Notes: generated by a model from the sequence alone, not told the origin. 27,706 bases of DNA from an uncultured Desulfobacteraceae bacterium (GCA_964021475.1 CAXHYW010000001.1:1-27706); one strand, 5' to 3'. Shown: positions 5,049 through 23,437, counted from the stretch's first letter. Numbers and translations: made by a program.

Positions 5049-5061
5049 CAGGAGATATGAA

Positions 5062-8000: not shown

Positions 8001-8178
8001 GAGGGAAACCATCACCACTGAAATCAGTTTAAGCCTTACCGAGCGGAAAGGCATGATAGAGGATGTCGATATCGTTGAGGCCGTCATGAATCTCAAAAGT
8101 ATTGAAACTGCCTACCAGGCAGCCTTAAGTTCTACCTCAAAGGTGTTGAACTTAAGCCTTGTCGATTATCTGAGATAG
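5062..8178 (+). CDS. flgL: Hook-associated protein 3 FlgL, greatly enlarged (1038 aa)
   Basis: N-terminus MRV...STQKRINEISDDPLG and LGNTQVNGSYVFGGT. C-terminus EDVDIVEAVMNLKSIETAYQAALSSTSKVLNLSLVDYLR. GGAG RBS, directly after flgK. Confidence 0.97.
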   Translation: MRVPNINTYYSATYRLGNLTEKLKNANEVMSTQKRINEISDDPLGLSQVLSLKNSIGNLEQIERNVVMGKSWLEGVENALDSVNNLILDAKSEAMRLSNDSTTADERHDALERMDNIIEQIVSLGNTQVNGSYVFGGTDVDVIPFTYDKTSEPNKVVYNGNGIPFEIRTDANSGVQVGRDGQQTFWDTIVDINATNNTIVFREDNGHGSASQKVMETKIPNGTYTKEELTIVVRNALNDASKQNGYGVQYLVSYDETAQQFAIREDGSYNGYLRTEFMWDTGGEPYVNEIKTSSLIDPDDVNISTLNRDALTLGTPEPSGKDPFKLIWDGSAGWNVEGNPGYVIPGKISGTADSIDIDLDESGFPDISIRLDKPVTQQGESIQFEIIPYKGDKSVGNEIGFKSENLTYSPPVSDNRPAFITDITITSGGNDTIDFVEMNSTGGVSATLSATITPGNYTDMDLLAKDIEAQLEAASAAPTAGANTIDYAVSYDVENSRFNIREDGTSLNELKVLWGNTSTAASTTAATLGYYPMDDTISYPVSDITPIHGNITISTTNNKIDFQETNTAGVATTIAAIIPSGVYKDITALETAVETAMNNASAASGNIVNYDVFYDETLPSPQFQIQRSSGTTLTNFDILWATGTNWSESIGDTLGYDVSFDDIGGGAAIHVSDAPPVLLTFDNTNNMIEFTETNINGTVSDEISIEIPSGDYTDLDTVAADIQTALRTASPNGVDYTVAYDFTAGNFMIKGSDADIKGFDLLWKTGTNTANTAAGMLGFDPAEDDSVRFSESDQDLINLVVDGLNNKIDFKEITSADVGKTVSNLTASIRNKTYSSYGELASEVEIALEAESFKNGNKIDYSVSWDDYTKRFSIKENGSRLEEFHLQWQSGENAAASVGGSGQSIGTILGFDTFDDIETPLNSMPEVEWGIFNTLIDLKTDLADNDVNGIQRSIGRLELNYDNMTSRIVDTGMKYSRLLVRETITTEISLSLTERKGMIEDVDIVEAVMNLKSIETAYQAALSSTSKVLNLSLVDYLR
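5629..7794 (+). repeat. Five tandem ~100-115 aa protein modules inside FlgL
   Basis: Repeats at about 5629-5910 (tail displaced to ~6260), 6328-6651, 6712-7029, 7096-7398 and 7456-7794. Shared pattern: NN.I.F.E...A.IP.G.Y..L...I..AL..AS...Y.V.YD...F.I....F.LLW.TG.N...LG[YF]. Confidence 0.9.
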
Positions 8179-8902: not shown

Positions 8903-11900
8903 ATGGTACTCAGTATAAAAACCGACATACCGGCACTGATATCAACCCGCCATTTTAACCGGACCGAAGAGGGTATTTCCTCCTCCATAGGGCGGTTGTC
9001 AAGCGGGCTTCGCATCAATAAAGCCGCGGATGACAGTTCCGGAATGGTCATTGCAGACAGCCTGACCTCCCAGGCCCTGGGATTGGGCCAGGCCATCCGG
9101 AATGCCAATGATGCCATCTCCATCGTTCAGGTAGCGGATGCAGCTCTGGAAGAGTCCATTAATATTTTAAATACCATTAAAGTGAAAAGTATCCAGGCGG
9201 CCCAGGACGGTCAAACCCTGGAAAGCAGAACGGCCATCCAGTCGGATATTCAACACCTAATTCAAGAGCTTGATAATATCGCCAAAACCACCTCCTTTAA
9301 CGGCCAAAAATTATTGTCGGGCGGGTTCTCTGACAAGTCTTTCCAAATAGGTGCCTATTCAGGGGAGAAGATCGGTTTGTCCATTGGATCTGCAACTGCC
9401 GGCAAGATCGGTCACATGACCACCGGTGATATTGTTGTCCACGACGGCGGGGAAGGGATTGCCTATCTGGGCATAAAAGGGTCGAAAAGCCAAAACATTC
9501 ATGAAATCCAGCCGGTTGAACTGACCTATGATAATTCTCCTGAACACGGCATGGGCGCATTGGCAGATGCAGTCAACAAAATGAGTGAAATCACCGGGGT
9601 AAGGGTCACGGCATCTGTCGAGACGGCAATGGACGGCAGCATACAGCCCGGTATGACCGACATGGATTTTTCCATTAACCGTGTCAAGTTAGGCAGTTTT
9701 TCCGTGGTGTCAAATGATGCCGACGGATCACTTATAAAGGCCATTAATAACAAAACTGTTCTCCACGGCGTGAATGCCTCTGTTAACGACAATGGCGGAC
9801 TTGTATTAACCTCGGTTGACGGAAGGGGGATATGGGTGGAGCCGGAACCGGGCCGGGGAACGGGGATTGATGCTATTTTCAAAGGGAAAAATTTGACCAC
9901 ACTGGGAAAACTGACGGTTCAGGGAAGCGGTGCCGGTATGTTTGAGGTCCGGGATCTGGGGGGGGGAGAACCCGTGGCCCTATCAGATACAGGGCTGAAT
10001 ATCAAAACAGATGCCCTGGTCGAGCGGGATTCAATTTTAACCGCAGGATCCGTCCTGACAAAAAATTCTGTTTTGAATTCACCTTGGACGGCAGATCAGA
10101 CGCTTTCCGGGGATCGTTTTCAAGAGGCCATTCCCATTGAAGAGCAGACCCTTATGGGAAAAGGATCAGTTCTCGGTGAGGAGTCCATATTGCTTACCAA
10201 AAGCGTTCTGCCGGATACCATTTGGGTGAATGGTATGGGCAAGACAGATTCCGAAAGTCTCATAAAAGAAGGGTCCATTCTTAGAAAAGACAGTCGCCTC
10301 GGGGCAGGAACCCAGATTCCTGCGGGTAATATCATCAGCGCCGGTACCCTGTTCAAAGGGGATGCCGTCATTGCGGCCACCCAGGCGACCATAGCATCAA
10401 GTCAGGTAAAAGAAGATTCCATCCTGGAAACTGACACCGTGATCGCATCGGGAAGTATCCTGAAAGGGACCGCTGTTGTGGACGGGTTGGGTCCCATGAC
10501 CGGCAGTGCCATGGTTCGTGCCGGTTCTGTATTGACAGCCGGATCTATCATTGCCTCGGGCACTACTCTCCGGGGAAATGCCACCATTGATGCGATTAAT
10601 AATACAACTGGTATCTACACTATTACTGCCGGGTCAACTCTTGCCGCTAACACCCTGTTTTCATCGGGCACCACCCTGGGTGGTAATGCACAGGTCAACC
10701 AGATTGTCACCACCGGTAATTATGTTTTGGCCAATAATTCCATTCTCAGGAACGGGTCGGTGATCGGGTCCGGCACTGTTTTGACCGGAATTGCCACCAT
10801 CAATGCAACGGGATTGACCACGGGGTCCTATGATCTTGCTATCGGGTCCACCCTGAGGGCAAATTCCATCATCGGGTCCGGCACCCTGTTGTCGGATGCG
10901 GCGGTGGTGACGGCCACAGGTCCCACCACCAGCCCCTATGTTCTGACGGCAACCTCCACGCTCATGGCCAATTCCATTCTGGGGTCTGGTACGGCATTGA
11001 CCAATACTGCCGTCATCAATGCCGTGGGACCCATATCTAATAACTATGTGGCGGCAGCAGGATCTACCCTGGCACCTAACACGGTTCTTGGCACCAGCAC
11101 CATTATTCGAGGCACTGCCACTATTAATGCCATCCCTGCCACGGCCAATGCCGCAGATACCATCAGCCTGGCCACGGGCACCCTCCTGGAAAACAATACC
11201 TTTATTGGTGTGGGCAGTTCCATTACCACCAACCTAGGGGTTCGAAACGGGCCCTTTACCATCGGGGCGGGGGGGGAGACAACCACCATCGGGCCCCAGA
11301 TTTTTCAATTGGAATTGGGTTCCATAGCTGCCGGATCGGTTCTGGCCGACACGTCTGTTATCGGCACTCCTGTCGTTTCCCTTCAGGCGGGAATGAATCC
11401 CGCAGCGCCCATGACCCTGACCGCCGGATCCATCCTGGCCAATAACACCAGTCTTGTGGCAGGATCCGTGGTTGGTCCCCAGGGTATCAGTTTATCGGTC
11501 AACATGAATCTGGCCAACCCCATGACCTTGAATCCGGGTTCAACCATTGCCAACACCTCCAGTCTGGCAGCAGGATCCCAAATCGGTGCCCAGGGGGTTG
11601 AATTGTTTGTGGACATGCTTACCACCGGTGTCATGGCGCTTGAAACTGGTTCAAATCTTGCCAATAACAGCCAGCTTGCAACGGGATCAACGGTTGGGGC
11701 CAATGATATTGACCTGGCATTGGATCTGACGCTCACCACGGGTGCCATGACCTTGCGGTCTGGCAGCACCATTGGAGCAAACAGTGTCTTATGGCAGGGC
11801 TCTGTCATCGGCGCCAACGGGGCGCAATTGAATACTGGCATGGTAACCGGGACCCTCATGACCCTGGAAATCGGATCTGATATGGGTGCCAATACCATTT

Positions 11901-13147
11901 TGAATACCAATTCAATTATCGGCGCTGATGGTGCAAGGCTCCTGGCGGATCTGAATGTCGGGGCGGACATGACATTGGCTGCAGGCTCCAGCCTTTCCAA
12001 TTCAAGCATTCTGGCCTCAGATTCCCTGTTTTCCAATGACAACCTGACCCTGGCCGCTGCCATGACCCTGACAGAGGATATGATGCTTACGGCGGGGTCA
12101 AAAATGGGAAGCAATAGTACGATTCAATACGGATCCTATATCTGGGCGGATGCCACCCTGATCTCCTCCATGACCCTGAGAGATTCGGTTACCCTTGCCA
12201 GCGATATGCGTCTGTCATCTGATTTGATTCTGGGAGTCGACTCAACCCTTGGGGATAACTCTCTATTGATTGAAGGGTCTTCTATCTATCTTTCTTTGGA
12301 GTTGCTCAGCACCATGGAGATGACGGATGAGGTGATCCTGGATTCCGGGTCTCAAATATCTGAAAAGGATACTTCCCTCATCCTTTCCGGTACATGGGTC
12401 GGCGGACGGGCTGTGCTTTCGGATGCCTTGGTTCTAACAGATGATTTTACACTCTCCAGGGGATCTGTGATTGGGAAGGAATCCATTTTGAAAAATGGAT
12501 CAAGCATTGGCGGGATGGTTGAAACTGCATTTACCGAACAGGTGAGCAAGGACGGTGAAATGAGTATTGGACAGGGGTCTGTCCTTGCCAGGGGAAGTCT
12601 TCTTGTCAGGGATACGTTTCTGACCAATGATATTGTTGCATTGGACGGCACGCGGTACAGACGGGGGAGTTTTCTTGATAGCGATCTTGTGGTTGATGAA
12701 AATGTAATATCCCAATCCATGACCCTTGGGCCTGGGTCTGAAATCGCCCCGGGCAGCCTGTTAAATACCAATTCAGAAGGGCAATTTGTGGCCACGGAAA
12801 CAAAGGATATCCAATTGTCAAGACTCTCTGATATCGAGGTTCTTACCCGGGAAGGGGCACAGCGGGCCATCGGGCTGGCAGATGTGGCAATACAAGATCT
12901 TGATGCCATACGGTCAAATCTTGGATCTGTCCAGAATCAACTGACCTCAGCCATTGCAGGGATCACAGCTGCCAAGGTGAATATCTTTGCCTCGGCTTCC
13001 TCCATCCGGGATGTTGATTTCTCCGACGAGATTCAAAACCTGAAAAAACTACAGATCCTCTCTGAAGCCGGTAAGTTTTCCCTATCCAGCTCAAACATCC
13101 GGGCTTCTATGCTGATCAGCCTGCTTACACAGACTGGTCAAAAATAA
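8903..13147 (+). CDS. Giant flagellin, divergent/minor paralogue (1414 aa)
   Basis: Flagellin N-domain RLSSGLRINKAADDSSG...IKVKSIQAAQDGQ...TSFNGQKLLSG.F..FQIGA. C-domain RSNLGSVQNQL...SSIRDVDF. The D0 termini are degenerate and there is a large central repeat insertion. Confidence 0.95.
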   Translation: MVLSIKTDIPALISTRHFNRTEEGISSSIGRLSSGLRINKAADDSSGMVIADSLTSQALGLGQAIRNANDAISIVQVADAALEESINILNTIKVKSIQAAQDGQTLESRTAIQSDIQHLIQELDNIAKTTSFNGQKLLSGGFSDKSFQIGAYSGEKIGLSIGSATAGKIGHMTTGDIVVHDGGEGIAYLGIKGSKSQNIHEIQPVELTYDNSPEHGMGALADAVNKMSEITGVRVTASVETAMDGSIQPGMTDMDFSINRVKLGSFSVVSNDADGSLIKAINNKTVLHGVNASVNDNGGLVLTSVDGRGIWVEPEPGRGTGIDAIFKGKNLTTLGKLTVQGSGAGMFEVRDLGGGEPVALSDTGLNIKTDALVERDSILTAGSVLTKNSVLNSPWTADQTLSGDRFQEAIPIEEQTLMGKGSVLGEESILLTKSVLPDTIWVNGMGKTDSESLIKEGSILRKDSRLGAGTQIPAGNIISAGTLFKGDAVIAATQATIASSQVKEDSILETDTVIASGSILKGTAVVDGLGPMTGSAMVRAGSVLTAGSIIASGTTLRGNATIDAINNTTGIYTITAGSTLAANTLFSSGTTLGGNAQVNQIVTTGNYVLANNSILRNGSVIGSGTVLTGIATINATGLTTGSYDLAIGSTLRANSIIGSGTLLSDAAVVTATGPTTSPYVLTATSTLMANSILGSGTALTNTAVINAVGPISNNYVAAAGSTLAPNTVLGTSTIIRGTATINAIPATANAADTISLATGTLLENNTFIGVGSSITTNLGVRNGPFTIGAGGETTTIGPQIFQLELGSIAAGSVLADTSVIGTPVVSLQAGMNPAAPMTLTAGSILANNTSLVAGSVVGPQGISLSVNMNLANPMTLNPGSTIANTSSLAAGSQIGAQGVELFVDMLTTGVMALETGSNLANNSQLATGSTVGANDIDLALDLTLTTGAMTLRSGSTIGANSVLWQGSVIGANGAQLNTGMVTGTLMTLEIGSDMGANTILNTNSIIGADGARLLADLNVGADMTLAAGSSLSNSSILASDSLFSNDNLTLAAAMTLTEDMMLTAGSKMGSNSTIQYGSYIWADATLISSMTLRDSVTLASDMRLSSDLILGVDSTLGDNSLLIEGSSIYLSLELLSTMEMTDEVILDSGSQISEKDTSLILSGTWVGGRAVLSDALVLTDDFTLSRGSVIGKESILKNGSSIGGMVETAFTEQVSKDGEMSIGQGSVLARGSLLVRDTFLTNDIVALDGTRYRRGSFLDSDLVVDENVISQSMTLGPGSEIAPGSLLNTNSEGQFVATETKDIQLSRLSDIEVLTREGAQRAIGLADVAIQDLDAIRSNLGSVQNQLTSAIAGITAAKVNIFASASSIRDVDFSDEIQNLKKLQILSEAGKFSLSSSNIRASMLISLLTQTGQK
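10028..12772 (+). repeat. ~36-37 aa repeats of [LIV]-x-x-G-[ST]-x hexads in the minor flagellin (~915 aa region, about 20+ units)
   Basis: Examples: SAMVRAGSVLTAGSIIASGTTLRGNATIDAINNTTG (36 aa), SYDLAIGSTLRANSIIGSGTLLSDAAVVTATGPTTS (36 aa), NPMTLNPGSTIANTSSLAAGSQIGAQGVELFVDMLTT (37 aa). Confidence 0.9.
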
Positions 13148-13542: not shown

Positions 13543-13944
13543 TTAATTCCTGAAATTAATGACCTTGGACTGGTCTCGTTGTGATTCAGAGGATCCGTAC
13601 GCCGTCATCATCTGCTTGCCTTTCGTAACTTTTTTAATACTGTTTTCCAATCCGATTTTATGTGTTTCCACTTGTGACTTGAGCATCTTGTTCTGGTTCA
13701 TCAGCAATACAATGCGGTTTGTTACTTCTTGTAACAAGGGGATGTTCTCTTTTGTTTCCATTGCTTCTGATTCCATTAAAAATAGCGCCAACCGTTTTTT
13801 CAGGTCAGAAAATCCGGCTTTTCGTTGGGCAATCTGCTCTTCCAAATCCGGCAGTATCTGGGTAGCAAACACATCAATATGAGATTGCTGTAGTTCATCC
13901 AGTTTGTCCAATGCGGTTTTGATCTGTTCGAATGCTATTTCCAT
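13543..13944 (-). CDS. FliT-like helical flagellar chaperone (133 aa)
   Basis: All-helical, sits directly downstream of fliS, and has the C-terminal KKVTKGKQMMTAYG resembling FliT. I moved the start to the ATG at 13944 (AAGGA RBS); the ORF-track start at 14031 overlaps fliS. Confidence 0.6.
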   Translation of the reverse strand: MEIAFEQIKTALDKLDELQQSHIDVFATQILPDLEEQIAQRKAGFSDLKKRLALFLMESEAMETKENIPLLQEVTNRIVLLMNQNKMLKSQVETHKIGLENSIKKVTKGKQMMTAYGSSESQRDQSKVINFRN

Positions 13945-13984
13945 TCTATTAATCCTTATGCCATGTATTCGTTGTTCATGCCGG

Positions 13985-14476
13985 TCAGACAGAGATAGAA
14001 CTGAATCGTTTGGTGGCTCCGGTGCTGCCATATCCTGAAACTGCTGTGGGCCGACGGCTTTGTTGGATGGGCTTCACCACCTCCACCTGGCCGGCTTTGG
14101 TGGATTTCCCCATGACATCTGTTTCCCAGATGTCCTTTAATTTTGTGATATAGACTTCAGTTCTGTCAAGAATCTGAACGGTATTGGTCAGGGAAACTTT
14201 TGGTAGTTCCGCAAGAATCGCCGAATAAAGTCCCCTTAGAAATAGGGTACTTTCATCCTGCATTTTCGGATTGAGCGAGGCATTCAATTCAGAGATAATG
14301 GCAATGACCTTGCTTAAATTCTCCCCCCGTTTTTGAATATTATTTTCCTTTATCCCTTCTTTGGTTAATCGGATACGGTCCAATGCGCCTTTATACAGCA
14401 GGAGGATTAATTGTTCCGCTTCCATGCCGTCATAATGGTTGTTCAAATAGGTGTTTACCTGGGCAATTGCTGCCAT
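13985..14476 (-). CDS. fliS: Flagellin chaperone FliS
   Basis: EQLILLLYKGAL..I....NIQKRGENLSKVIAIISELNASLN....LRGLY; AGGAGG RBS. Confidence 0.95.
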   Translation of the reverse strand: MAAIAQVNTYLNNHYDGMEAEQLILLLYKGALDRIRLTKEGIKENNIQKRGENLSKVIAIISELNASLNPKMQDESTLFLRGLYSAILAELPKVSLTNTVQILDRTEVYITKLKDIWETDVMGKSTKAGQVEVVKPIQQSRRPTAVSGYGSTGATKRFSSISV

Positions 14477-16418: not shown

Positions 16419-19400
16419 CTATTGGAGTAAGCTCAGTACACCCTGGGCGCTGGCATTGGCCTGGCTCATGGCAAAGGTACCGGCCTGCTGCAGTACCTGC
16501 ATCTTGGTGAAGTTGGCAGATTCTTCTGCAAAGTCAACGTCACGGATACTGGATTCTGCCGCGGACACATTTACACGGGTGGTGGAAATGTTGGCAATGG
16601 TTGAACTCAACTGATTCTGAACAGAACCCAAGTCAGCTCTGTTTTTGTCCAGATCTTTGAGGGCCGCATCCGCTACCGCAATGGCAATCTGTGCATCCTC
16701 CTGGGTGAGAACACTCAGGTCGGACAGCCGGTTGACTTCCGATTTGCTGGCTTCTGCCGTTGCAAAGTCACTGGAGGCATCGTTGGGAGCCAACTGGGTG
16801 CCAGCGGCCATGACAGATCCGTTCTGGAGGGTCATGTCAGAGGTCAACGTGGTGTTCGCTCCTACTTCAACAGCATCTTCCAATATGGTGCCCGCAGTAA
16901 AGAGAGTACCGTTCTGGTCGGTGATGTCGGTGGTCAGGTAGGTGTTTTCCGCAATCACACTGCCTGCCGCCAGGGTGGATCCTGAAGTCAGCAACATATC
17001 TATATCAGCGGAAACCGTCTCGTCATTGGCCAGGGTGATAACCCCCCCGATCTCTGAGCCGCTGGTGAGCACAGAACCGTTAGCCATGGTGGACCCGGCT
17101 GCCAAGGTAAAGTCTGCGGTCATGGTGATGTCTCTATCCAAGTCTATCTTCCCGCCCACCGTGGAATCCGCTCCAATGGTGAAGGCGTTGTTCACAACCA
17201 GCTTGGAGCCTGATGCGATATTGGCGTCCGACTGGAGGGTCATATTACCTTTGATGGTGATCTTGGCCGCCACATTGGAACCGTTGGCCAGGGTGGAATC
17301 ATCAATGAGCTTGGATCCTGCCTGGAGGGTCATGTCCTGATCCAGGGTAAAGTCCTGACCGGTAGTAACCTCGGCTCCGACGAAGGAACCTGTTTTCAGG
17401 GTACTGCCGCTGGCAACAATGGATCCTGCCTCGAGGGTCATATCACGGGAAAGAGTGGTGGACCCGCTGGTGCCGAATTTGGCCCCAAGGGAGGAACCTG
17501 CTTTCAGGGTACTTGAACCTTCGAGAATGGATCCGGCCTTCAGGGTCATGTCATCATCAAGGGTTTGCTGTTTATATGCAGTCGTAACATCCGCAGCAAA
17601 TGAAGACCCGTTATCAAGGGAGCTGATACCCTTGAGTTTGGATCCGGTATTCAGGATCATGTCGTTCACTAGGGTCGTTTGAGCACCACTGGCGGTTGTA
17701 ACGTCCGTACCAATGAATGAGCCTGTGGCCAACGAATTAGACCGTCCTGCTGCTGAGGTTAGCTTAGATCCGGAATTCAGGGTCATGTCGTTGGTCAGGG
17801 TAGTTTTACTACTGCTTGTTGTAACATCTGAGTCCAGATAGGATCCTGTGGCCAGTTTGCTGGAGGCTGAGTTTCCAGCACTGTCTAATATGGATCCGGC
17901 CTTCAGGGTGATATCCTCTGCAAAGGTGGTGATTGCCAGGCCTGTGGTTTTGACATCCGCACCAAAGTTAGAGCCTGCACCCAGAATAGTGGCATTAGAT
18001 GCAGTGGCACCAAGGACACTTCCAGCCTTCAGGGTGGTAATCCCGCCGGCTGTAAGGGTCTGGGCATTGGCTGTATCCGTGGTATAGTCCTGGGTCAGGG
18101 TTCCACTAACAGAGAAAGTTGTACCGGATGTAACGTTGATGTACTGACCTGCAGCCAGGGTGGTTCCGGCTTTAAGCGTGGAGCCTGAAGCAATTGTTGA
18201 GTTGTTGGTTAGAACACTGTCTTCAGTGGAGGTATGTACCCCGGATGCCAGGGTGACATTAGAGGTTACAACCGTTCCCTTGCCAATGGTGGAACCTGAT
18301 CCCATGACAGAACCGGCTTTCAGGAGGCTGTCCTGGATCGTTGCTGTGGTGGTTACACCAGATGCCAACAATACATCCCCACCAACCACTGAATTGGCAG
18401 CAATGACCGAACCTGATCCTATTGTGGACGTGGCTTTTAAAAGGCTGTTTCCCACAGTGGTGGAGGTTGATCCTTCTTGTAGTATGGTGGTCCCGCCCAC
18501 GATTGAACCTGCTGCAATGGTGGAACCTGATCCGAGAATAGATCCGGCTTTCAGAGAACTATCTCCTGTGGTTGAGCTGGTTGCACCGGATTTTAGTTCA
18601 ATATCTCCTCCAACAACGGAACCGGCTGCGATTTTGGAGCCTGAAGCGATGATGGATTTAGAGGTGAGGGTGCTGTCCCCCACGGTCTGGCTGGTTGCAA
18701 TACCTGAATTGGTGATAAAATCACCCCCCAGTGTGGTGTTGGCTGCCACAGTGGTGTTGGCCTTGAGGATTGAATCCTCCTTGAGCAGGCTTTCTCCCAC
18801 GGTTTGGGTGGTATTGATGCCAGATGCCATGATCACATCCCCGCCCAATACGGTATTGGCGGCAATCTCTGTTGCGCTCTTCAGGATTGAGCCCTCTGCA
18901 ATGAGGCTTTCTCCGGTGGTGGAAGAGGTGTCCTGAACCTGGACCGTGTCTGTAATGTCAGACCCGCTTGCCAGTTCAGAGGTGGCGATGAGCACGGAGC
19001 CTGTGGCAAAGGTGGAGTTCTGGCTGGTGATGATGTTTGAGTTGCTGATATCATCTCCGGTCATGGCCTGACCAGTGGTCCAGCCTGCAGACAGAGCTGA
19101 CTTGTCAGCGAGAACAGAGCCTGTTTTCAGGTTGGATTCCATGGTGGTCTCACCTGACGCTCCCTTGGTTTCCAGATCGCTGGTCAAGGCGATGGCTGAA
19201 CCGCCGCCAACGTTGTTGACCACAATTTCACTGGAGCCGGTCTGGTTGAGTGTGACAAAGCCCACGGTGGTGAGTTCGTCATCGCTTTGCATCCGAAGAA
19301 CTGCTTTGGTGGCATCTCCACCTGTTAGGTCGTTTGCAGTTGCGCCGGTTTCTACCTTGATGGCCCTGTTGTCCGAGGAGGTCAGGGTCAAAATACCCGA

Positions 19401-20297
19401 TGCGTTCACCGAGGCCACAACGCCGTGACCGGAGGTCTTAGAGTTGATGGCTTTAACCAGGGAGCCGCTGGAATCGTTTGTCTGTACCTCAATGGCACCA
19501 ATGGTTTCTCCGTTGATGCTGAAACCCTTGTCTGTTGTACCGGCCGCAATATTCAAAGCGGTCTCACTTCTCACGGTTGCAGAGGCAGAGATCCCTAAGC
19601 TGTCACTGAGAAGATTTATGGCGTCGGCCACGGCACCCATGCTGTGTTCCCTGTCGATGGAGCCTTCGGTCAGGGACACATCCACGGACTTGATGTTGAA
19701 ATTCTTGTTCTGAAGATTACTGAAAATACTTAAGTCCACAGTACCGGCCTGACCGTTCTGGAGGGTCAGCTGGGTTGTGGTGGTGTGACCGATCTTGGTG
19801 GATTCCGAGCTTGCAATGGAAATTCCTACGGTCTCTCCTGAATAGGCGCCAATCTGAAATTGTTTGTTGGTGAATGCACCGGAAAGGAGCTTCTGATTAT
19901 TAAAAGATGTGGTCTTGGCAATGATGTCCAATTCTTCCATCAGTTTGTTGATATCAGCCTGGATGGCAGATCTTGATTCAGTGGTTTGACCGTCCTGTGC
20001 TGCCTGGATACTTTTGGTTTTGATTGTGTTGATGATGTTGATGGATTCGTCTAGGGCCGCATCAGCGGTCTGTACAATATTGATACCGTCATTGGCATTT
20101 TTGATAGCCTGTCCAAGACCATTGGCCTGGGATCTAAGTGAATCGGCAATGGACATGCCCGATGCATCGTCGGCAGCCTTGTTGATTCTTAAGCCGGATG
20201 ACAGTCTTTCAAGGGAGCTTGAAAGGGCGTTGTCATTTTTGATCATGTTTTTGTGTGCGTTCAGAGATGCGACGTTGGTATTGATTCGAAGTGCCAT
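16419..20297 (-). CDS. fliC: Giant major flagellin (1292 aa)
   Basis: Canonical start MALRINTNVASLNA...RLSSGLRINKAADDASG and canonical end RDVDFAEESANFTKMQVLQQAGTFAMSQANASAQGVLSLLQ. The start is the ATG at 20297 (GGAGG RBS), not the GTG at 20399. It has its own sigma28 promoter and terminator. Confidence 0.98.
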   Translation of the reverse strand: MALRINTNVASLNAHKNMIKNDNALSSSLERLSSGLRINKAADDASGMSIADSLRSQANGLGQAIKNANDGINIVQTADAALDESINIINTIKTKSIQAAQDGQTTESRSAIQADINKLMEELDIIAKTTSFNNQKLLSGAFTNKQFQIGAYSGETVGISIASSESTKIGHTTTTQLTLQNGQAGTVDLSIFSNLQNKNFNIKSVDVSLTEGSIDREHSMGAVADAINLLSDSLGISASATVRSETALNIAAGTTDKGFSINGETIGAIEVQTNDSSGSLVKAINSKTSGHGVVASVNASGILTLTSSDNRAIKVETGATANDLTGGDATKAVLRMQSDDELTTVGFVTLNQTGSSEIVVNNVGGGSAIALTSDLETKGASGETTMESNLKTGSVLADKSALSAGWTTGQAMTGDDISNSNIITSQNSTFATGSVLIATSELASGSDITDTVQVQDTSSTTGESLIAEGSILKSATEIAANTVLGGDVIMASGINTTQTVGESLLKEDSILKANTTVAANTTLGGDFITNSGIATSQTVGDSTLTSKSIIASGSKIAAGSVVGGDIELKSGATSSTTGDSSLKAGSILGSGSTIAAGSIVGGTTILQEGSTSTTVGNSLLKATSTIGSGSVIAANSVVGGDVLLASGVTTTATIQDSLLKAGSVMGSGSTIGKGTVVTSNVTLASGVHTSTEDSVLTNNSTIASGSTLKAGTTLAAGQYINVTSGTTFSVSGTLTQDYTTDTANAQTLTAGGITTLKAGSVLGATASNATILGAGSNFGADVKTTGLAITTFAEDITLKAGSILDSAGNSASSKLATGSYLDSDVTTSSSKTTLTNDMTLNSGSKLTSAAGRSNSLATGSFIGTDVTTASGAQTTLVNDMILNTGSKLKGISSLDNGSSFAADVTTAYKQQTLDDDMTLKAGSILEGSSTLKAGSSLGAKFGTSGSTTLSRDMTLEAGSIVASGSTLKTGSFVGAEVTTGQDFTLDQDMTLQAGSKLIDDSTLANGSNVAAKITIKGNMTLQSDANIASGSKLVVNNAFTIGADSTVGGKIDLDRDITMTADFTLAAGSTMANGSVLTSGSEIGGVITLANDETVSADIDMLLTSGSTLAAGSVIAENTYLTTDITDQNGTLFTAGTILEDAVEVGANTTLTSDMTLQNGSVMAAGTQLAPNDASSDFATAEASKSEVNRLSDLSVLTQEDAQIAIAVADAALKDLDKNRADLGSVQNQLSSTIANISTTRVNVSAAESSIRDVDFAEESANFTKMQVLQQAGTFAMSQANASAQGVLSLLQ
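16782..19142 (-). repeat. ~36-42 aa hexad repeats in the major flagellin (~787 aa region, about 18-20 units)
   Basis: Examples: ESLLKEDSILKANTTVAANTTLGGDFITNSGIATSQTVG (39 aa), DSSLKAGSILGSGSTIAAGSIVGGTTILQEGSTSTTVG (38 aa), RDMTLEAGSIVASGSTLKTGSFVGAEVTTGQDFTLD (36 aa). Confidence 0.9.
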
Positions 20298-20303
20298 GTT
20301 TGT

Positions 20304-20341
20304 TCCTCCATGTTGTGTTGTTCCCGGGAATCCTTTCCCGG
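20304..20341 (-). promoter_or_regulatory. CsrA-type binding sites in the fliC leader
   Basis: Hairpin CCGGGAA-AGGA-UUCCCGG (20341-20324) has GGA in the loop. A second site, AUGGAGGA (20311-20304), overlaps the Shine-Dalgarno. This is the arrangement known for B. subtilis hag. Confidence 0.75.
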
Positions 20342-20390
20342 ACATTTTGCATAAAAAAAAGTTAGTTTGTAGCGTTAGCTCAGGGGCTAC

Positions 20391-20412
20391 CAGGATCACC
20401 TCCTTTGTCCTG
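20391..20412 (-). promoter_or_regulatory. Leader hairpin containing a 14-nt perfect complement of the 16S rRNA 3' end (orphan extended SD)
   Basis: The mRNA reads CAGGA-CAAAGGAGGUGA-UCCUG. AAAGGAGGUGAUCC (20406-20393) is the reverse complement of the 16S terminus GGAUCACCUCCUUU. Confidence 0.6.
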
Positions 20413-20433
20413 AATTTCTAACACTAAAACTAA

Positions 20434-20460
20434 GTATCGGATCTATTTCAAAATTCTTTA
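20434..20460 (-). promoter_or_regulatory. sigma28 (FliA) promoter of the major flagellin
   Basis: TAAA-GAATTTTGAAATAGA(15)-TCCGATAC against the consensus TAAA-N15-GCCGATAA, with an AT-rich tract upstream. Confidence 0.85.
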
Positions 20461-20471
20461 AAAAAATAACT

Positions 20472-20498
20472 TAAGGTTGCGTTTTTTTTTCCCGACTG
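20472..20498 (+). promoter_or_regulatory. Possible divergent sigma28-like promoter for maf-rSAM, with a T9 tract in the spacer
   Basis: TAAG-N15-CCCGACTG has correct spacing and a CCGA core, but the -10 box is only 4/8. Confidence 0.3.
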
Positions 20499-20554
20499 TA
20501 ATTATAAACTCCCAAGTGAGGAGAAATGGTTATATTCAAATGGAGAACGGGTTG

Positions 20555-23437
20555 ATGGGCGTATCGGAAAAAACGGTTTATGGGAAAAATATATCCCTGT
20601 TAAAGAAAAATCATCCTTCGGCGTGGAGTGCTCTCATCATGGCGAAAGAGACGGAAAAAAAGATGTCTTCCCATGAGATAGAGTTGATTCATGCTGATAA
20701 TGACAGACCCAATCTCCTGGCGAAGGATGCACAGGGTGAAACCGTTCTGATCCATGATGAAGAAAATCCCGGCAGTGAATCTGAATCTTTTATTTCAATG
20801 TTTGAACAAGACTCCACTGGGGTTGTATTGGTGTTTGGGATGGGACTGGGCTATTTGCCCCTTGAATTGTTGAAACAGAGAAAAAAACTTCAGTATGTTT
20901 TCATTTTTGAATTGGATCCTGAATGTTTTAATATTGCCCTGGCGCATATGGATCTTACCCCCCTTTTTGATGATAAGCGGGTGATCCTTTCCATCGGATA
21001 TCCGGAAAATGTTGCCGGGTTTCTTAGACCCGCAAAACGCGCCCTGATGCTGGAAGATATCCATACCCACAAGTTTGCGCCGTTGTTTCAACTGAACGAT
21101 GCCTATGAAGATCTTGCTTCGGTCGTTTTTGATCTTGTCAGCGAGTACAATATTGAGGGTGCCACCCAATCCCTTCACGGAAAAACTTTTGTTGAGAACA
21201 GACTAAAACATCTCACCTCCATGCACCATGACAACCGGTTGGAACAACTTGCAGAAAAATATAAAGGTGTTCCGGCTTTGATCATAGCTGCCGGTCCTTC
21301 TTTGGATAAAAATATCCAGGAGATTAAAAGGGCTGTTGGTAAAGCGGTTCTTATCTGTGTGGATACGGCCCTTCCTGCGCTTTTCAATCATGGTATAACG
21401 CCCGATTTTGTAACATCAATAGATTATAATGCGCCCACTTATGAAAAGATAGCCGATCTGGCTTTGGATCCGAGGAGCCAAGGGATTAATCTCATCTGCA
21501 CCTCATGGGTGGCGACCACGGTTTCAAAAATTTTCCCAGCCAGGGATATTTTCTGGGCGTTTGGCGAGACCCCTTTTGAAAATTGGATCAACAGGTCTCT
21601 GGGCGGGACCATGAATATCGGGGGCGCCGGAACAGTGGCTCATTTGAATTTTTTATCGGCCAAAATATTGGGATGCGATCCAATTATTTTTGTGGGGCAA
21701 GACCTTGCATACTCTTACAGCAAAGAGCATGCTTCCCAGGTGGTCTTTACTGGGACCGAATCCATGGAAAAGATTTTGGAAGATGCTGTCTGGGTAAAAG
21801 GGGTTAATGAGGCGCAGGTGCCCACAACCCGTGGAATGCACAGCTACAGAATTATATTTGAGCAATGGATAGAGCAGTCAGAGATCCGGACGGTTAATGC
21901 CACCGAAGGCGGGGCATGGATAGAGGGGGCTGAACATATGTCCCTTTCCCGGGCCATTGATTTGTTTTGCAATGATGATATCAGTATGAATATTGAGACT
22001 GCTCGTAAAAGGAGGGATCCATCCAAAACTATGGTCTCCATGCTGAAAAAAGTGGAGCAGGCTGAAAAGACAATCAAAAAGGCAGAAAAGCTTGCCGATT
22101 CGGTTTTAAAGGAAGTCCGTAAACTCAAGGGGAAAAAAAGGGGATTGACCCGTTTTAATGTACTTCCCCATAAGTTCCAAAATCAGATTATCACCCTGGA
22201 TTCTTTATATAATGAATCTGATAGAAATTCATTATGGGAAATGTTTAATGAGATGACCATGGAGGGGCTCAGGCAGGATGAGAGAGATAAAAATGAGATC
22301 GAAAGGCTTGAAGATGTGCCGGAAAAATATTTGGAGTGGCTCTCCAAAAATGTAAAGCGAACCGACCGGGTCAATTTAATCAGGCGGGATAATTTGACTG
22401 ATTTGAAAAGCAAGCTCAATTTTTTGGTTTCTTTTTATGGTCAAGAAAAAAAAATATCGGGGCAGATGGAAAACGGTAGTCAGGACCTGTCCGATGTGCT
22501 GTCACTTGCAGAACTCTATTACCAAAATGGTGACTATAGGCTCCTGGATCATTTTTTGAAAAAATACACAGGGGAAGACTCTGCGGCCATTTGTTTTTAT
22601 CGGGGTGTGATTTTATTGTATCGAAGGGGGTATGGGAAATCAGATCACTATTTCAACCGGGCTTTAACCCTGGATGGGGCATATAAACAGAAAATTGATG
22701 CCAAGCGGCGGGAAATGTCTGATTATTACTATGACTGGGCCCTGACAGTTCCCTTTGATGCTCTGATTGGGCTGGAAAGCAAAACCGGTCTCCACATGCG
22801 TTTAAAGGGAATAAAATGTTTTCCTGGACATGAGCTTTTGAAAGACGGATTCAGGGAGCTTGCCAGGATGGATTTTGATAAAGTTCTGGACAACATTAAG
22901 CAGGGAGAAGGTGGGAATCTTCTCTTTATCAAAGAAACTCTGAACGCCTGGGTTGAGTTATTAATGAATGAAGATGTGATTCATCAATGCATACCAGAGG
23001 ACCTTGAAGCAGCATTCTTCCGTCATTTGGGTAAGATCTTGCTGGATGAAGGAAAGCATGACAAAGTCCTTGAAATCTATGAACGTGCTCTGGTCCTTTT
23101 ACCTGACAGGCCTGAGCTTTATGTCGCATTGACCGATCTTTGTTTTTCCATGGAAGACTTTGATAAAGGATTTGAATATCTCAAGACGGCAGTATCCTTG
23201 GATATAAACTGTGCTGTTTATTGGAACCATATTGGGGAAAACCTCCAGGCCCGAGGGGATTTCCAGGGCGCTATCATTTCATATGAGAACTATTTTACGG
23301 TTCTACCCGAAAAGATAGAGTCTTTGAAGAAAATCAGTGACTGTTATTTAAAACTGGGTAAGATTGAGGCTGCTGGTGAGGTCCAAAAGAGATTTGAGAA
23401 TTTGTTTCAGGGTAATGGGGATACTAAAAAACAATGA
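20555..23437 (+). CDS. maf: Motility-associated factor (Maf / DUF115 MptE-like) flagellin glycosyltransferase with C-terminal TPRs (960 aa)
   Basis: N-domain VLVFGMGLGY..FIFELD. DUF115 core PALIIAAGPSLDKN..LICVDTAL..GITPDFVTSID, GTVAH..A.ILGCDPIIFVGQDLAY, VNATEGGA.IEG. TPR-like helices at the C-terminus. I chose the ATG at 20555 because of a GGAGA RBS. Confidence 0.9.
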   Translation: MGVSEKTVYGKNISLLKKNHPSAWSALIMAKETEKKMSSHEIELIHADNDRPNLLAKDAQGETVLIHDEENPGSESESFISMFEQDSTGVVLVFGMGLGYLPLELLKQRKKLQYVFIFELDPECFNIALAHMDLTPLFDDKRVILSIGYPENVAGFLRPAKRALMLEDIHTHKFAPLFQLNDAYEDLASVVFDLVSEYNIEGATQSLHGKTFVENRLKHLTSMHHDNRLEQLAEKYKGVPALIIAAGPSLDKNIQEIKRAVGKAVLICVDTALPALFNHGITPDFVTSIDYNAPTYEKIADLALDPRSQGINLICTSWVATTVSKIFPARDIFWAFGETPFENWINRSLGGTMNIGGAGTVAHLNFLSAKILGCDPIIFVGQDLAYSYSKEHASQVVFTGTESMEKILEDAVWVKGVNEAQVPTTRGMHSYRIIFEQWIEQSEIRTVNATEGGAWIEGAEHMSLSRAIDLFCNDDISMNIETARKRRDPSKTMVSMLKKVEQAEKTIKKAEKLADSVLKEVRKLKGKKRGLTRFNVLPHKFQNQIITLDSLYNESDRNSLWEMFNEMTMEGLRQDERDKNEIERLEDVPEKYLEWLSKNVKRTDRVNLIRRDNLTDLKSKLNFLVSFYGQEKKISGQMENGSQDLSDVLSLAELYYQNGDYRLLDHFLKKYTGEDSAAICFYRGVILLYRRGYGKSDHYFNRALTLDGAYKQKIDAKRREMSDYYYDWALTVPFDALIGLESKTGLHMRLKGIKCFPGHELLKDGFRELARMDFDKVLDNIKQGEGGNLLFIKETLNAWVELLMNEDVIHQCIPEDLEAAFFRHLGKILLDEGKHDKVLEIYERALVLLPDRPELYVALTDLCFSMEDFDKGFEYLKTAVSLDINCAVYWNHIGENLQARGDFQGAIISYENYFTVLPEKIESLKKISDCYLKLGKIEAAGEVQKRFENLFQGNGDTKKQ

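What the first reader, a model, noticed from the sequence alone, without database searches (positions are those of the whole stretch)
10028..12772. Minor flagellin carries a ~915 aa putative left-handed beta-solenoid in two arms
Seen: repeats of 36-37 aa, equal to six hexads, with an aliphatic residue at position 1 and Ser/Thr at position 5. Arm 1 (to ~11235) has xYxL starts and Thr/Asn ladders. A hinge (VRNGPFTIGAGGETTTIGPQIF, ~11239-11320) follows. Arm 2 has xMTL starts. Known: [LIV]-x-x-x-[STAV]-x hexapeptides form 18-residue-per-turn left-handed beta-helices (LpxA/GlmU family), so 36 aa equals two turns. Inference: this is an out-and-back pair of solenoid rods projecting from the filament. 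It would be a structural, non-enzymatic use of the fold in a flagellin, which I do not know to have been described.
Basis: partly seen in the sequence, partly recalled or inferred. Interest (0 to 1): 0.85.

Follow-up and report, generated by a model that had tools for sequence, protein, structure and literature searches.

The report
Giant flagellin with two-armed beta-helix
This 1414-residue flagellin carries about 150 six-residue repeats that most likely build two length-matched beta-helical rods folded back on each other; it belongs to a large, unstudied flagellin family of sulfate-reducing bacteria that databases already list.

Summary
Residues 376-1290 of the flagellin at 8903-13147 (+) are about 150 hexapeptide units. 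Lag-6 aliphatic autocorrelation is 0.40, against a shuffle 99.9th percentile of 0.14. A 36-residue super-repeat precedes a Gly-rich hinge and a 37-residue one follows it.

Pfam Hexapep and a family profile searched against the PDB hit only left-handed beta-helix (LbH) proteins. The region has no His or Cys, so it is not a canonical acyltransferase.

New here: in 42 of 45 well-anchored relatives, across seven size classes, arm 2 equals arm 1 plus about 110 residues (slope 0.97). Indels come as one 36/37-residue unit per arm. This supports an out-and-back hairpin.

Structure prediction did not settle the fold. AlphaFold2 on the window's protein gave mean pLDDT 56, and its solenoid superposes better on right-handed helices. 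An 812-residue relative folded confidently, but its repeat part could not be searched alone. Handedness and rod packing remain unproven.

The novelty claim is weakened. A 2017 supplement lists Flagellin_N~LbetaH~Flagellin_C, a 2018 table lists Desulfobacterales giants, AlphaFold DB holds a 1246-residue relative, and this scan met the family three times on other DNA.

Verdict: a real, uncharacterised outer-domain variant of moderate interest.

The parts
8903..9412 (+). N-terminal D0/D1 core of the flagellin (residues 1-170)
   Evidence: Pfam Flagellin_N matches residues 5-141 at E 2.5e-40. Residues 1-339 align to H. pylori FlaB/FlaA and C. jejuni FlaA (9yh1, 9ygu, 6x80) at E about 1e-73.
9413..10027 (+). 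Campylobacter/Helicobacter-type first outer domain with the Flagellin_IN motif (residues 171-375)
   Evidence: Flagellin_IN matches residues 266-305. NCBIfam flagellin A/B models cover residues 1-343. This part of the AF2 model has pLDDT 75-87 and matches 9ygu, 6x80 and 9yh1 at rmsd 3.1-3.9 A.
10028..10162 (+). Conserved entry segment of the repeat region (residues 376-420, with an invariant Trp at 395)
   Evidence: It aligns in all 22 homologues, and W395 is invariant.
10028..11236 (+). Arm 1: hexapeptide-repeat region before the hinge (residues 376-778)
   Evidence: Lag-6 periodicity is present. Hexapep scores E 4.3e-14 on this arm alone. GlmU and gamma-carbonic-anhydrase LbH hits fall on this part of the profile. 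In the low-confidence model it is one continuous solenoid of about 350 residues.
10517..11161 (+). Six 36-residue super-repeats of arm 1 (residues 539-753; one unit has 35)
   Evidence: Self-identity is 0.36 at lag 36.
11237..11302 (+). Gly-rich hinge (residues 779-800)
   Evidence: The hexad register breaks here. The segment is conserved and alignable in all homologues. The hinge HMM's best hit scores 24-62 bits against 12-25 for the second-best hit. The homologous segment in the confident 812-aa model forms a meander of longer strands.
11303..12772 (+). Arm 2: hexapeptide-repeat region after the hinge (residues 801-1290)
   Evidence: Hexapep scores E 3.8e-11 on this arm alone. LpxD hits fall on this part of the profile. 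Self-identity at lag 37 is 0.29.
11411..12280 (+). Eight M-T-L-initiated super-repeats of arm 2 (residues 837-1126; lengths 37, 37, 38, 37, 37, 31, 36, 37)
12620..12772 (+). Conserved exit segment (residues 1240-1290)
   Evidence: It aligns in all homologues. The exit HMM scores 60-88 bits. The best-modelled part of the repeat region in the AF2 model (pLDDT 65-87) lies here.
12773..13147 (+). C-terminal D1/D0 core (residues 1291-1414) and stop codon
   Evidence: Pfam Flagellin_C matches residues 1324-1408 at E 3e-18.
16419..20297 (-). Paralogous giant flagellin (1292 aa from the ATG at 20297) with the same entry, arm 1, hinge, arm 2, exit layout
   Evidence: Flagellin_N, Flagellin_C and Hexapep match. 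It is colinear with the first flagellin at 30% identity, E 8e-54. Its arms are 336 and 449 residues. A sigma28-like promoter lies upstream.
20477..23437 (+). Maf-type flagellin glycosyltransferase with a TPR tail; the likely modifier of the Ser/Thr-rich repeat surface
   Evidence: MptE-like scores E 3.3e-36 and Maf_flag10_N also matches. The genome also holds at least 3 NeuB-family genes and a second Maf gene.

Best explanation
The gene encodes a genuine filament-forming flagellin of a Desulfobacteraceae-like genome. It has a Campylobacter/Helicobacter-type D0/D1 core and first outer domain.

Between that domain and the C-terminal D1 helix lie about 915 residues of hexapeptide repeats, roughly 50 beta-helix turns of 18 residues. 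They carry the sequence signature of the left-handed beta-helix (LbH) of sugar acyltransferases but none of its catalytic residues.

The chain runs out along arm 1 (about 400 residues). It reverses at a conserved Gly-rich hinge and returns along arm 2 (about 510 residues) to re-enter D1. The result is a hairpin of two antiparallel rods, each about 10-13 nm long if every turn rises 4.8 A.

Both ends of the insert must meet at the filament core, so the arms have to stay matched in length. Evolution changes them together, one two-turn unit (36 or 37 residues) per arm.

The hairpins, probably O-glycosylated by the adjacent Maf enzyme, form a thick, rigid, non-enzymatic outer layer on the filament.

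Shown: the repeats, their LbH-type signature, the absence of His and Cys, and the lockstep arm lengths. Inferred: the handedness, rod-to-rod packing, orientation on the filament, glycosylation and mechanical role.
For: 1. It is a flagellin in a flagellar late-gene locus. Flagellin_N and Flagellin_C match. The neighbours are FlgN, FlgK, FlgL, CsrA, FliW, FlaG, FliS and FliD. The genome's only two flagellins are both of this type.

2. The hexapeptide periodicity is far above chance.

3. Pfam Hexapep and LbH_EIF2B both pass their cut-offs, and Hexapep matches each arm on its own. The 60 hits shown for the family profile against the PDB are all LbH proteins: LpxD at 9.4e-9, plus gamma-carbonic anhydrase, GlmU, QdtC, LpxA and eIF2B-epsilon. 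No bactofilin or right-handed beta-helix Pfam family appears at E <= 1.

4. The 915 residues contain 0 His and 0 Cys. The few His residues in orthologues are not positionally conserved.

5. The entry, hinge and exit segments are conserved in all homologues.

6. Arm lengths co-vary 1:1. Among 24 proteins of 1030 aa or more, the slope is 1.01, the intercept 107 and r 0.995. With strong anchors, 42 of 45 family proteins obey arm 2 = arm 1 + 110 +/- 15. This holds over seven size classes with arm 1 of 100, 143, 217, 262, 335, 366 and 402 residues.

7. Indels are matched unit for unit. P0006 lacks 36 residues in arm 1 and 37 in arm 2. P0007 lacks 36 and 36. The paralogue lacks about 75 and about 71. 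The 1120-aa class lacks about 147 and about 143.

8. AF2 of an 812-aa family member is confident in the repeats (pLDDT 85-93). It shows strands every six residues and a distinct meander at the hinge.

9. A Maf gene is adjacent and NeuB genes are present in the genome. Ser+Thr make up 24% of the region.
Against: - AF2 of the window's own protein is low-confidence (mean pLDDT 56, pTM 0.35).
- In that model arm 1 superposes on right-handed beta-helices at rmsd 4-6 A (Vag8, pertactin, UpaB, Ag43). It superposes on LbH enzymes only at about 12 A despite similar Z-scores. Foldseek found autotransporter helices and no LbH chain among the 50 hits listed.
- The confident 812-aa model gave no beta-helix match at Z >= 8. 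The D0/D1 helices dominate the search and the model could not be cropped.
- The arm-to-arm docking job gave no verdict.
- One relative with a strong hinge hit (P0021, 980 aa) has arms of 260 and 230 residues and breaks the rule.
- The size classes are related proteins, so the number of independent length changes is about six, not 42.
- HMM E-values on repeats can be inflated by periodic composition.
Confidence: 0.55

Rival explanations
1. The repeats form a right-handed three-sided beta-solenoid, like bactofilin or autotransporter passenger domains, and not a left-handed LbH. The two-arm hairpin layout could still hold.
For: In the AF2 model of the window's protein the arm-1 solenoid superposes on right-handed helices. 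Examples are Ag43 at rmsd 4.0 A over 243 residues, UpaB at 4.8 A and Vag8 at 5.8 A. LbH enzymes reach similar Z-scores but about 12 A rmsd, as a mirror-handed coil would. Foldseek's non-flagellin hits are Ag43 and TibA. Fields 2024 mentions a pectate-lyase-like flagellin outer-domain cluster.
Against: That model has pLDDT of only 50-62 in the repeats. The strict 6+6+6 periodicity with [LIV]-x-x-[GND]-[STA]-x is the LbH signature. Hexapep and LbH_EIF2B pass the Pfam cut-offs, and the 60 PDB profile hits shown are all LbH. No bactofilin, pectate-lyase, AIDA or pertactin family is hit at E <= 1.
Confidence: 0.2
2. The repeat region is not a two-rod hairpin. It would instead be several shorter solenoid segments, or one bent or flexible rod with unpaired arms, and the arm lengths co-vary only because selection acts on total size.
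For: Register breaks occur beyond the hinge, near residues 395-412, 750-757, 1150-1160 and 1205-1222. The arm-to-arm docking gave no verdict. P0021 breaks the length rule. The pTM values are low, 0.35 and 0.46.
Against: A slope of 1.0 with a constant 110-residue offset across a four-fold range of arm length is not what proportional growth gives. Observed ratios range from 1.27 to 1.54. Indels are paired as one unit per arm. Both ends of the insert must rejoin the core only 10-30 residues beyond the repeats.
Confidence: 0.15
3. It is an enzymatic flagellin, analogous to flagellinolysin, whose LbH domain acts as an acyl- or acetyltransferase or as a gamma-carbonic anhydrase on the filament surface.
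For: The sequence resembles LbH enzymes. Enzymatic flagellin outer domains have a precedent in PMC5595980.
Against: The 915 residues contain no His at all, and there are no conserved His residues in orthologues. Established knowledge is that LbH acyltransferases use a catalytic His and gamma-carbonic anhydrases use three Zn-binding His. No N- or C-terminal substrate-binding domain is present. About 50 turns is five to ten times the length of enzyme LbH domains.
Confidence: 0.03
4. The protein is exported by the flagellar apparatus but is not a filament subunit. It would be a secreted adhesin or a FlaC-like flagellin homologue.
For: Its N- and C-termini are less canonical than those of the paralogue. 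It lies in the sigma54-type flgN-flgK-flgL-csrA-fliW operon and not behind a sigma28 promoter.
Against: It has full-length Flagellin_N and Flagellin_C. Its orthologues keep both ends and nearly the same length, 1414-1419 aa. The gene lies directly downstream of fliW and csrA, which by established knowledge act on flagellin. The paralogue has the same architecture.
Confidence: 0.05

Closest known systems
Campylobacter jejuni FlaA and Helicobacter pylori FlaA/FlaB flagellins (PDB 6x80, 9ygu, 9yh1)
   Same: The D0/D1 core and the first outer domain are shared: residues 1-339 align at E about 1e-73, with rmsd 3.1-3.9 A on the model. The locus also has a Maf glycosyltransferase, CsrA/FliW, and one sigma54-operon flagellin beside one sigma28-promoter flagellin.
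   Different: Those flagellins are 508-576 aa with compact beta-rich outer domains. Here about 915 residues of hexapeptide repeats take the place of the distal outer domains.
Left-handed beta-helix (hexapeptide-repeat) acyltransferases: LpxD, LpxA, GlmU, QdtC, maltose acetyltransferase (Pfam PF00132)
   Same: They share the tandem [LIV]-x-x-x-[STAV]-x hexapeptides with 18 residues per presumed turn. Pfam and PDB profile hits go to exactly these proteins.
   Different: There is no catalytic His, no partner domains, and about 50 turns instead of 5-10. The region is embedded in a flagellin, left-handedness is not demonstrated here, and trimerisation was not tested.
[quoted passage not shown] 2017, Supplementary Table 1 (PMC5595980)
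   Same: This is the same domain architecture. The table lists 9 + 7 + 2 sequences, some of them labelled delta/epsilon subdivisions.
   Different: It is only a table row. It gives no repeat analysis, structure, arm layout or function.
Giant flagellins of Bermanella marisrubri and Oleibacter marinus (Thomson et al. 2018, PMC6248924)
   Same: These are flagellins over 1000 aa that build thick filaments. The paper's supplementary table lists Desulfobacterales and Desulfobacula flagellins of 1251 aa.
   Different: Their inserts are duplicated DE domains plus a DX insert, not hexapeptide repeats. The delta-proteobacterial giants were listed by length only.
Non-enzymatic LbH domains (eIF2B epsilon/gamma; gamma-carbonic-anhydrase-like subunits of mitochondrial complex I)
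   Same: They use the hexapeptide fold as a scaffold. They are hit by the family profile and by Pfam LbH_EIF2B.
   Different: They are short (5-7 turns), intracellular, and not part of a helical filament.
Self-associating autotransporter passenger domains (Ag43, TibA)
   Same: They are long, Ser/Thr-rich and (for TibA) glycosylated beta-solenoid rods on the cell surface. They are the best rmsd matches to the low-confidence model.
   Different: They are right-handed with about 19-residue turns, are exported by type V secretion, and share no sequence-family hit with this protein.

Membership tests
Bacterial flagellin (FliC/FlaA family) | N-terminal and C-terminal helical D0/D1 regions (Pfam PF00669 and PF00700) | tested here: met
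   PF00669 scores 138 bits and PF00700 scores 66 bits. The best solved relatives are flagellins at E about 1e-73.
Bacterial flagellin (FliC/FlaA family) | Encoded among flagellar late genes (FliS, FliD, FliW, FlgK, FlgL) | tested here: met
Bacterial flagellin (FliC/FlaA family) | Polymerises into the filament | not testable with these tools
   This needs proteomics or EM. Indirect support: the genome's only two flagellins both have this architecture.
Hexapeptide-repeat / left-handed beta-helix superfamily (PF00132) | Tandem imperfect [LIV]-[GAED]-x2-[STAV]-x hexapeptides | tested here: met
   There are 154 hexads. Position 1 is aliphatic in 90% and position 5 is small in 69%. Hexapep scores 55.8 bits against a cut-off of 27.
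Hexapeptide-repeat / left-handed beta-helix superfamily (PF00132) | Left-handed coil of three flat strands per 18 residues | tested here: inconclusive
   Both AF2 models show strands every 6 residues. The low-confidence model superposes better on right-handed helices. The confident model could not be searched on its repeat part alone.
LbH acyltransferases (LpxA, LpxD, GlmU, PglD type) | Catalytic His at the subunit interface and a trimeric assembly | tested here: not met
   Residues 376-1290 contain 0 His, and orthologue His residues are not conserved in position. Trimerisation was not tested.
Giant flagellins (>1000 aa; Thomson 2018) | Flagellin longer than 1000 residues | tested here: met
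   The protein has 1414 aa.
Giant flagellins (>1000 aa; Thomson 2018) | Forms thicker-than-normal filaments | not testable with these tools
   Volume estimates suggest a diameter of 23-29 nm if the rods are packed, and up to about 40 nm if they are radial. This is inference only.
Right-handed beta-helix surface proteins (autotransporter, pectate-lyase-like, bactofilin) | Sequence-family membership | tested here: not met
   No such Pfam family is hit at E <= 1.
Right-handed beta-helix surface proteins (autotransporter, pectate-lyase-like, bactofilin) | Right-handed coil geometry | tested here: inconclusive
   Rmsd is 4-6 A to Ag43, UpaB and Vag8, but on a model with pLDDT 50-62.

The most novel reading that the evidence does not exclude
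The flagellin builds a length-matched antiparallel hairpin of two beta-helical rods. Evolution sets the hairpin's length in two-turn quanta, one 36/37-residue unit per arm. Across the family it ranges from about 5 to about 22 turns for arm 1 (arm 2 is about 6 turns longer throughout).

This would be a modular ruler for filament thickness. It would give a bristle-like or sheath-like filament made by flagellin itself, up to about 40 nm wide, an architecture not seen in any solved flagellum.
Probability: 0.35. Interest if true: 0.7.

Novelty: new variant of a known kind. Interest (0 to 1): 0.5.

Why it matters
Flagellin outer domains set filament thickness, stiffness, surface chemistry and recognition by phages and hosts. 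Solved examples are almost all Ig-like or small beta-rich domains.

A roughly 50-turn beta-helical hairpin would be among the largest flagellin outer structures known. It would also be one of the most regular, and an unusual structural use of the hexapeptide fold.

The lockstep growth of the two arms gives a concrete, testable prediction. Filament diameter across cultured Desulfobacteraceae should scale with arm length.

The family is common in marine sulfate reducers, being found in 16 of 24 genomes of the window's family. Its function therefore bears on motility in sediments.

It is not a new kind of system. Giant flagellins and domain insertions into flagellin are established, and this architecture is already tabulated in databases.

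Tried and rejected
- Complex prediction of arm 1 (376-795) against arm 2 (796-1290) gave no verdict: score 0.00, pLDDT under 50, controls not run. It is not evidence either way.
- AF2 of residues 150-1340 with a 27-sequence alignment gave mean pLDDT 56 and pTM 0.35. It is usable only for the first outer domain and the exit segment.
- Whole-model fold searches of the confident 812-aa relative were swamped by D0/D1 matches or returned nothing meaningful for the repeats. This applies to PDB Foldseek, VIA wide, AFDB clusters, BFVD and the ESM Atlas.
- The ESM Atlas feature search on the repeat region scored 0.80 or less and was uninformative.
- phmmer of the single sequence against the PDB gave only a marginal maltose-acetyltransferase hit at E 0.007. 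The family profile was needed.
- Tandem Repeats Finder found no DNA repeat.
- The hinge of the 800-aa class was at first ambiguous, at about 466 or about 633. It was resolved because the second site lies inside the exit-segment match. I did not use the length rule to choose between them.
- I considered a Geovibrio thiophilus-type architecture (793-801 aa, solved). Its outer domains are Ig-like and beta-sandwich, so I rejected it.
- I rejected the acyltransferase reading because His is absent.
- Literature searches for flagellin together with hexapeptide, left-handed beta-helix or solenoid found no paper that characterises the class.

Full report
**Locus and gene.** The window is a flagellar late-gene locus.
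- On the + strand lie FlgN (180-746), a 1432-aa FlgK (750-5048), a 1038-aa FlgL (5062-8178), CsrA, FliW, and the flagellin under study (8903-13147, 1414 aa).
- On the - strand lie FlaG, an unassigned 162-aa ORF, FliS, FliD, and a second giant flagellin.
- These are followed by a Maf-type glycosyltransferase with TPR repeats, a B12/radical-SAM protein, a DUF2920 protein and GDP-mannose 4,6-dehydratase.
- The protein has Flagellin_N (residues 5-141), a Flagellin_IN motif (266-305) and Flagellin_C (1324-1408).
- Its first 339 residues align to H. pylori and C. jejuni flagellins of known structure at E about 1e-73.
- The genome is an 83%-complete assembly in 975 contigs. It holds only these two flagellins plus FlgL.
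- The closest named homologues come from Desulfospira joergensenii, Desulfobacula and Desulfobacter.

**Checking the observation.** The finding's coordinates equal residues 376-1290.
- The aliphatic autocorrelation is 0.40 at lag 6, 0.31 at lag 12 and 0.24 at lag 18. The 99.9th percentile of the best lag in shuffles is 0.14. The N-terminal 340 residues show no periodicity.
- A dynamic-programming parse gives 154 hexads with very few register slips.
- Position 1 is L/I/V/M/F in 90% of hexads and position 5 is S/T/A/G in 69%. These two positions are the best conserved among orthologues.
- Arm 1 has six 36-residue units (539-753). Arm 2 has eight units starting M-T-L, mostly 37 residues long (837-1126).
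- The hinge at 779-800 breaks the register.
- No DNA-level tandem repeat exists.

**What the repeats are.**
- Pfam Hexapep (55.8 bits, cut-off 27) and LbH_EIF2B (55.9, cut-off 54) both pass, and Hexapep matches each arm alone.
- A profile of the repeat region from 22 family members was searched against all PDB sequences. All 60 hits shown are left-handed beta-helix proteins. They include LpxD (9.4e-9), gamma-carbonic anhydrases, GlmU, QdtC, LpxA and eIF2B-epsilon, and both arms contribute.
- No bactofilin, pectate-lyase or autotransporter family is hit.
- The 915 residues contain no His and no Cys. The sparse His residues in orthologues are not conserved in position.
- It is established that LbH acyltransferases need a catalytic His and gamma-carbonic anhydrases need three His. 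An enzymatic role is therefore unlikely.
- The region is 24% Ser+Thr and net acidic, with 72 D+E against 34 K+R.

**The family.**
- A word-seeded search found 206 relatives, nearly all carrying precomputed Flagellin_N, Hexapep/LbH and Flagellin_C domains. Their lengths range from 790 to 1563 aa.
- They fall into size classes near 800, 885, 980, 1120, 1270-1340 and 1414 aa, and the periodic span grows with length.
- The repeat region is found in 16 of 24 sampled genomes of the window's family.
- In an even sample of 301 genomes across the phylum, 9 had a hit, spread over 8 families.
- The two paralogues in the window are colinear over the whole insert at 30% identity, E 8e-54.

**Testing the out-and-back idea from sequences.**
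- Three segments are conserved in every homologue: an entry segment with an invariant Trp, the Gly-rich hinge, and an exit segment.
- I built HMMs of the three segments and used them as anchors to measure the arm lengths.
- Among 24 proteins of at least 1030 aa, arm 2 = 1.01 x arm 1 + 107 with r = 0.995. The hinge hit scored 24-62 bits, against 12-25 for the runner-up.
- With strong anchors over the whole family, 42 of 45 proteins obey arm 2 = arm 1 + 110 +/- 15. This holds across seven size classes, with arm 1 from 100 to 402 residues and a slope of 0.97.
- Relative to the window's protein, one orthologue lacks exactly 36 residues in arm 1 and 37 in arm 2, and another lacks 36 and 36. The paralogue lacks about 75 and 71. 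The 1120-aa class lacks about 147 and 143.
- Proportional growth would not keep the offset constant; the observed arm ratios run from 1.27 to 1.54.
- The simplest explanation is geometric closure. The insert leaves and re-enters the core at one place, so an outgoing rod needs a returning rod of matching length, and units are gained or lost in pairs.
- Caveats: the classes are related, so there are about six independent changes. One protein with a strong hinge hit (P0021, 260/230) is a real exception.
- The constant excess of about 110 residues, or 6 turns and about 29 A, may be the stretch of arm 2 that runs past the first outer domain back to D1. This is inference.

**Structure prediction.**
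- AF2 on residues 150-1340 gave mean pLDDT 56 and pTM 0.35. Only the first outer domain (75-87) and the exit region (65-87) are reliable. The repeats score 50-62, and the model shows two-residue strands every six residues.
- In that model arm 1 is one continuous solenoid of about 350 residues. It matches right-handed helices at rmsd 3.4-6.4 A (Vag8, pertactin, UpaB, Ag43). LbH enzymes reach similar Z-scores (11-15) but rmsd of about 12 A. This pattern is expected if the modelled coil has the opposite hand to LbH.
- At this confidence the result does not overturn the sequence evidence, but it leaves handedness open.
- An 812-aa family member with a 51-sequence alignment folded confidently: mean pLDDT 81, with 85-93 in the repeats. 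It has the same six-residue strand spacing and a distinct longer-stranded meander at the hinge.
- Every whole-model search of that model was dominated by the D0/D1 helices, and I could not crop it.
- The arm-to-arm docking job gave no verdict.

**Likely function (inferred).** The hairpins probably form a rigid, non-enzymatic outer layer.
- At 4.8 A per 18-residue turn the arms would be about 10 and 13 nm long.
- Packed as a sheath, the extra mass implies a filament of about 23-29 nm. Fully radial rods would give up to about 40 nm.
- The adjacent Maf gene, a second Maf gene and at least three NeuB-family genes make O-glycosylation of exposed Ser/Thr plausible, as in Campylobacter by established knowledge.
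- The oversized FlgK and FlgL in the same operon fit a wide filament.
- The label 'minor' rests on analogy. The only sigma54-type box lies upstream of flgN, at 112-127. The paralogue has a sigma28-like TAAAG-N15-CCGATA promoter.

**Prior knowledge.**
- No paper in the library describes this outer domain.
- Eckhard et al. [quoted passage not shown]
- Thomson et al. 2018 list 1251-aa Desulfobacterales and Desulfobacula flagellins by length only. Their studied giants use unrelated DE domains.
- Fields et al. 2024 cluster AlphaFold DB flagellin outer domains and mention a pectate-lyase-like cluster #35, without naming a taxon. I could not tell whether that cluster is this family.
- AlphaFold DB holds a 1246-aa cluster representative that matches the family model over its full length, E 3e-46.
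- This scan has already reported the family three times on other genomes, and it also noted a giant FlgL with a similar insert.

**Verdict.** The window's protein is the longest well-anchored member seen here of a catalogued but uncharacterised flagellin family. The new element is the lockstep, unit-for-unit growth of the two arms, which supports a beta-helical hairpin and gives a testable prediction. Interest is moderate.

Noticed in passing
window 20298-20480 (- strand): The mechanical ORF of the second flagellin starts at the GTG at 20399. A GGAGG-type ribosome-binding site and an ATG at 20297 give a canonical MALRINTN start and a 1292-aa protein. A sigma28-like TAAAG-N15-CCGATA box lies about 140 nt upstream of that ATG.
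   Followed up: partly
window 12620-12700 (residues about 1240-1265) compared with 11237-11302: The exit segment contains an element (L-T-x-D-I-T-x-x-D-G-x-x-Y-x-x-G) that resembles the hinge. In the 800-aa class the hinge HMM hits both places. The hinge and the exit may be homologous turn or cap modules.
   Followed up: partly
protein P0021 (980 aa, Desulfobacter sp. MAG; not in the window): This is the one relative with a strong hinge match that breaks the arm-length rule: 260/230, where about 260/370 is expected. The ~980-aa Desulfobacter class may have a different return path.
   Followed up: no
window 750-8178: FlgK (1432 aa) and FlgL (1038 aa) are also far larger than usual, with intact terminal domains. 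FliD (561 aa) is of ordinary size. Neither FlgK nor FlgL shows Hexapep hits here.
   Followed up: partly
locus L002 (G023:C77:6968-7537): A same-family genome holds a stretch 59% identical to residues 460-650 of the repeat region, in a short frame with an in-frame TAG. It may be a broken copy or a contig-end fragment.
   Followed up: no
window 13543-14031 (- strand): A 162-aa ORF lies between fliS and flaG and overlaps the fliS end by 47 nt. It has no credible family hit. By position it could be a FliT-like chaperone.
   Followed up: no
own genome, contigs C88, C60, C343 and C881: Outside the window there are at least three NeuB-family nonulosonic-acid synthase genes and a second Maf (MptE-like) gene. 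This fits flagellin glycosylation.
   Followed up: partly
window 8903-8960 and 13090-13144: The extreme N- and C-termini of this flagellin (MVLSIKTD... and ...LLTQTGQK) are less canonical than those of the paralogue (MALRINTN... and ...LSLLQ). This may relate to FliW/FliS handling or to a hook-proximal role.
   Followed up: no
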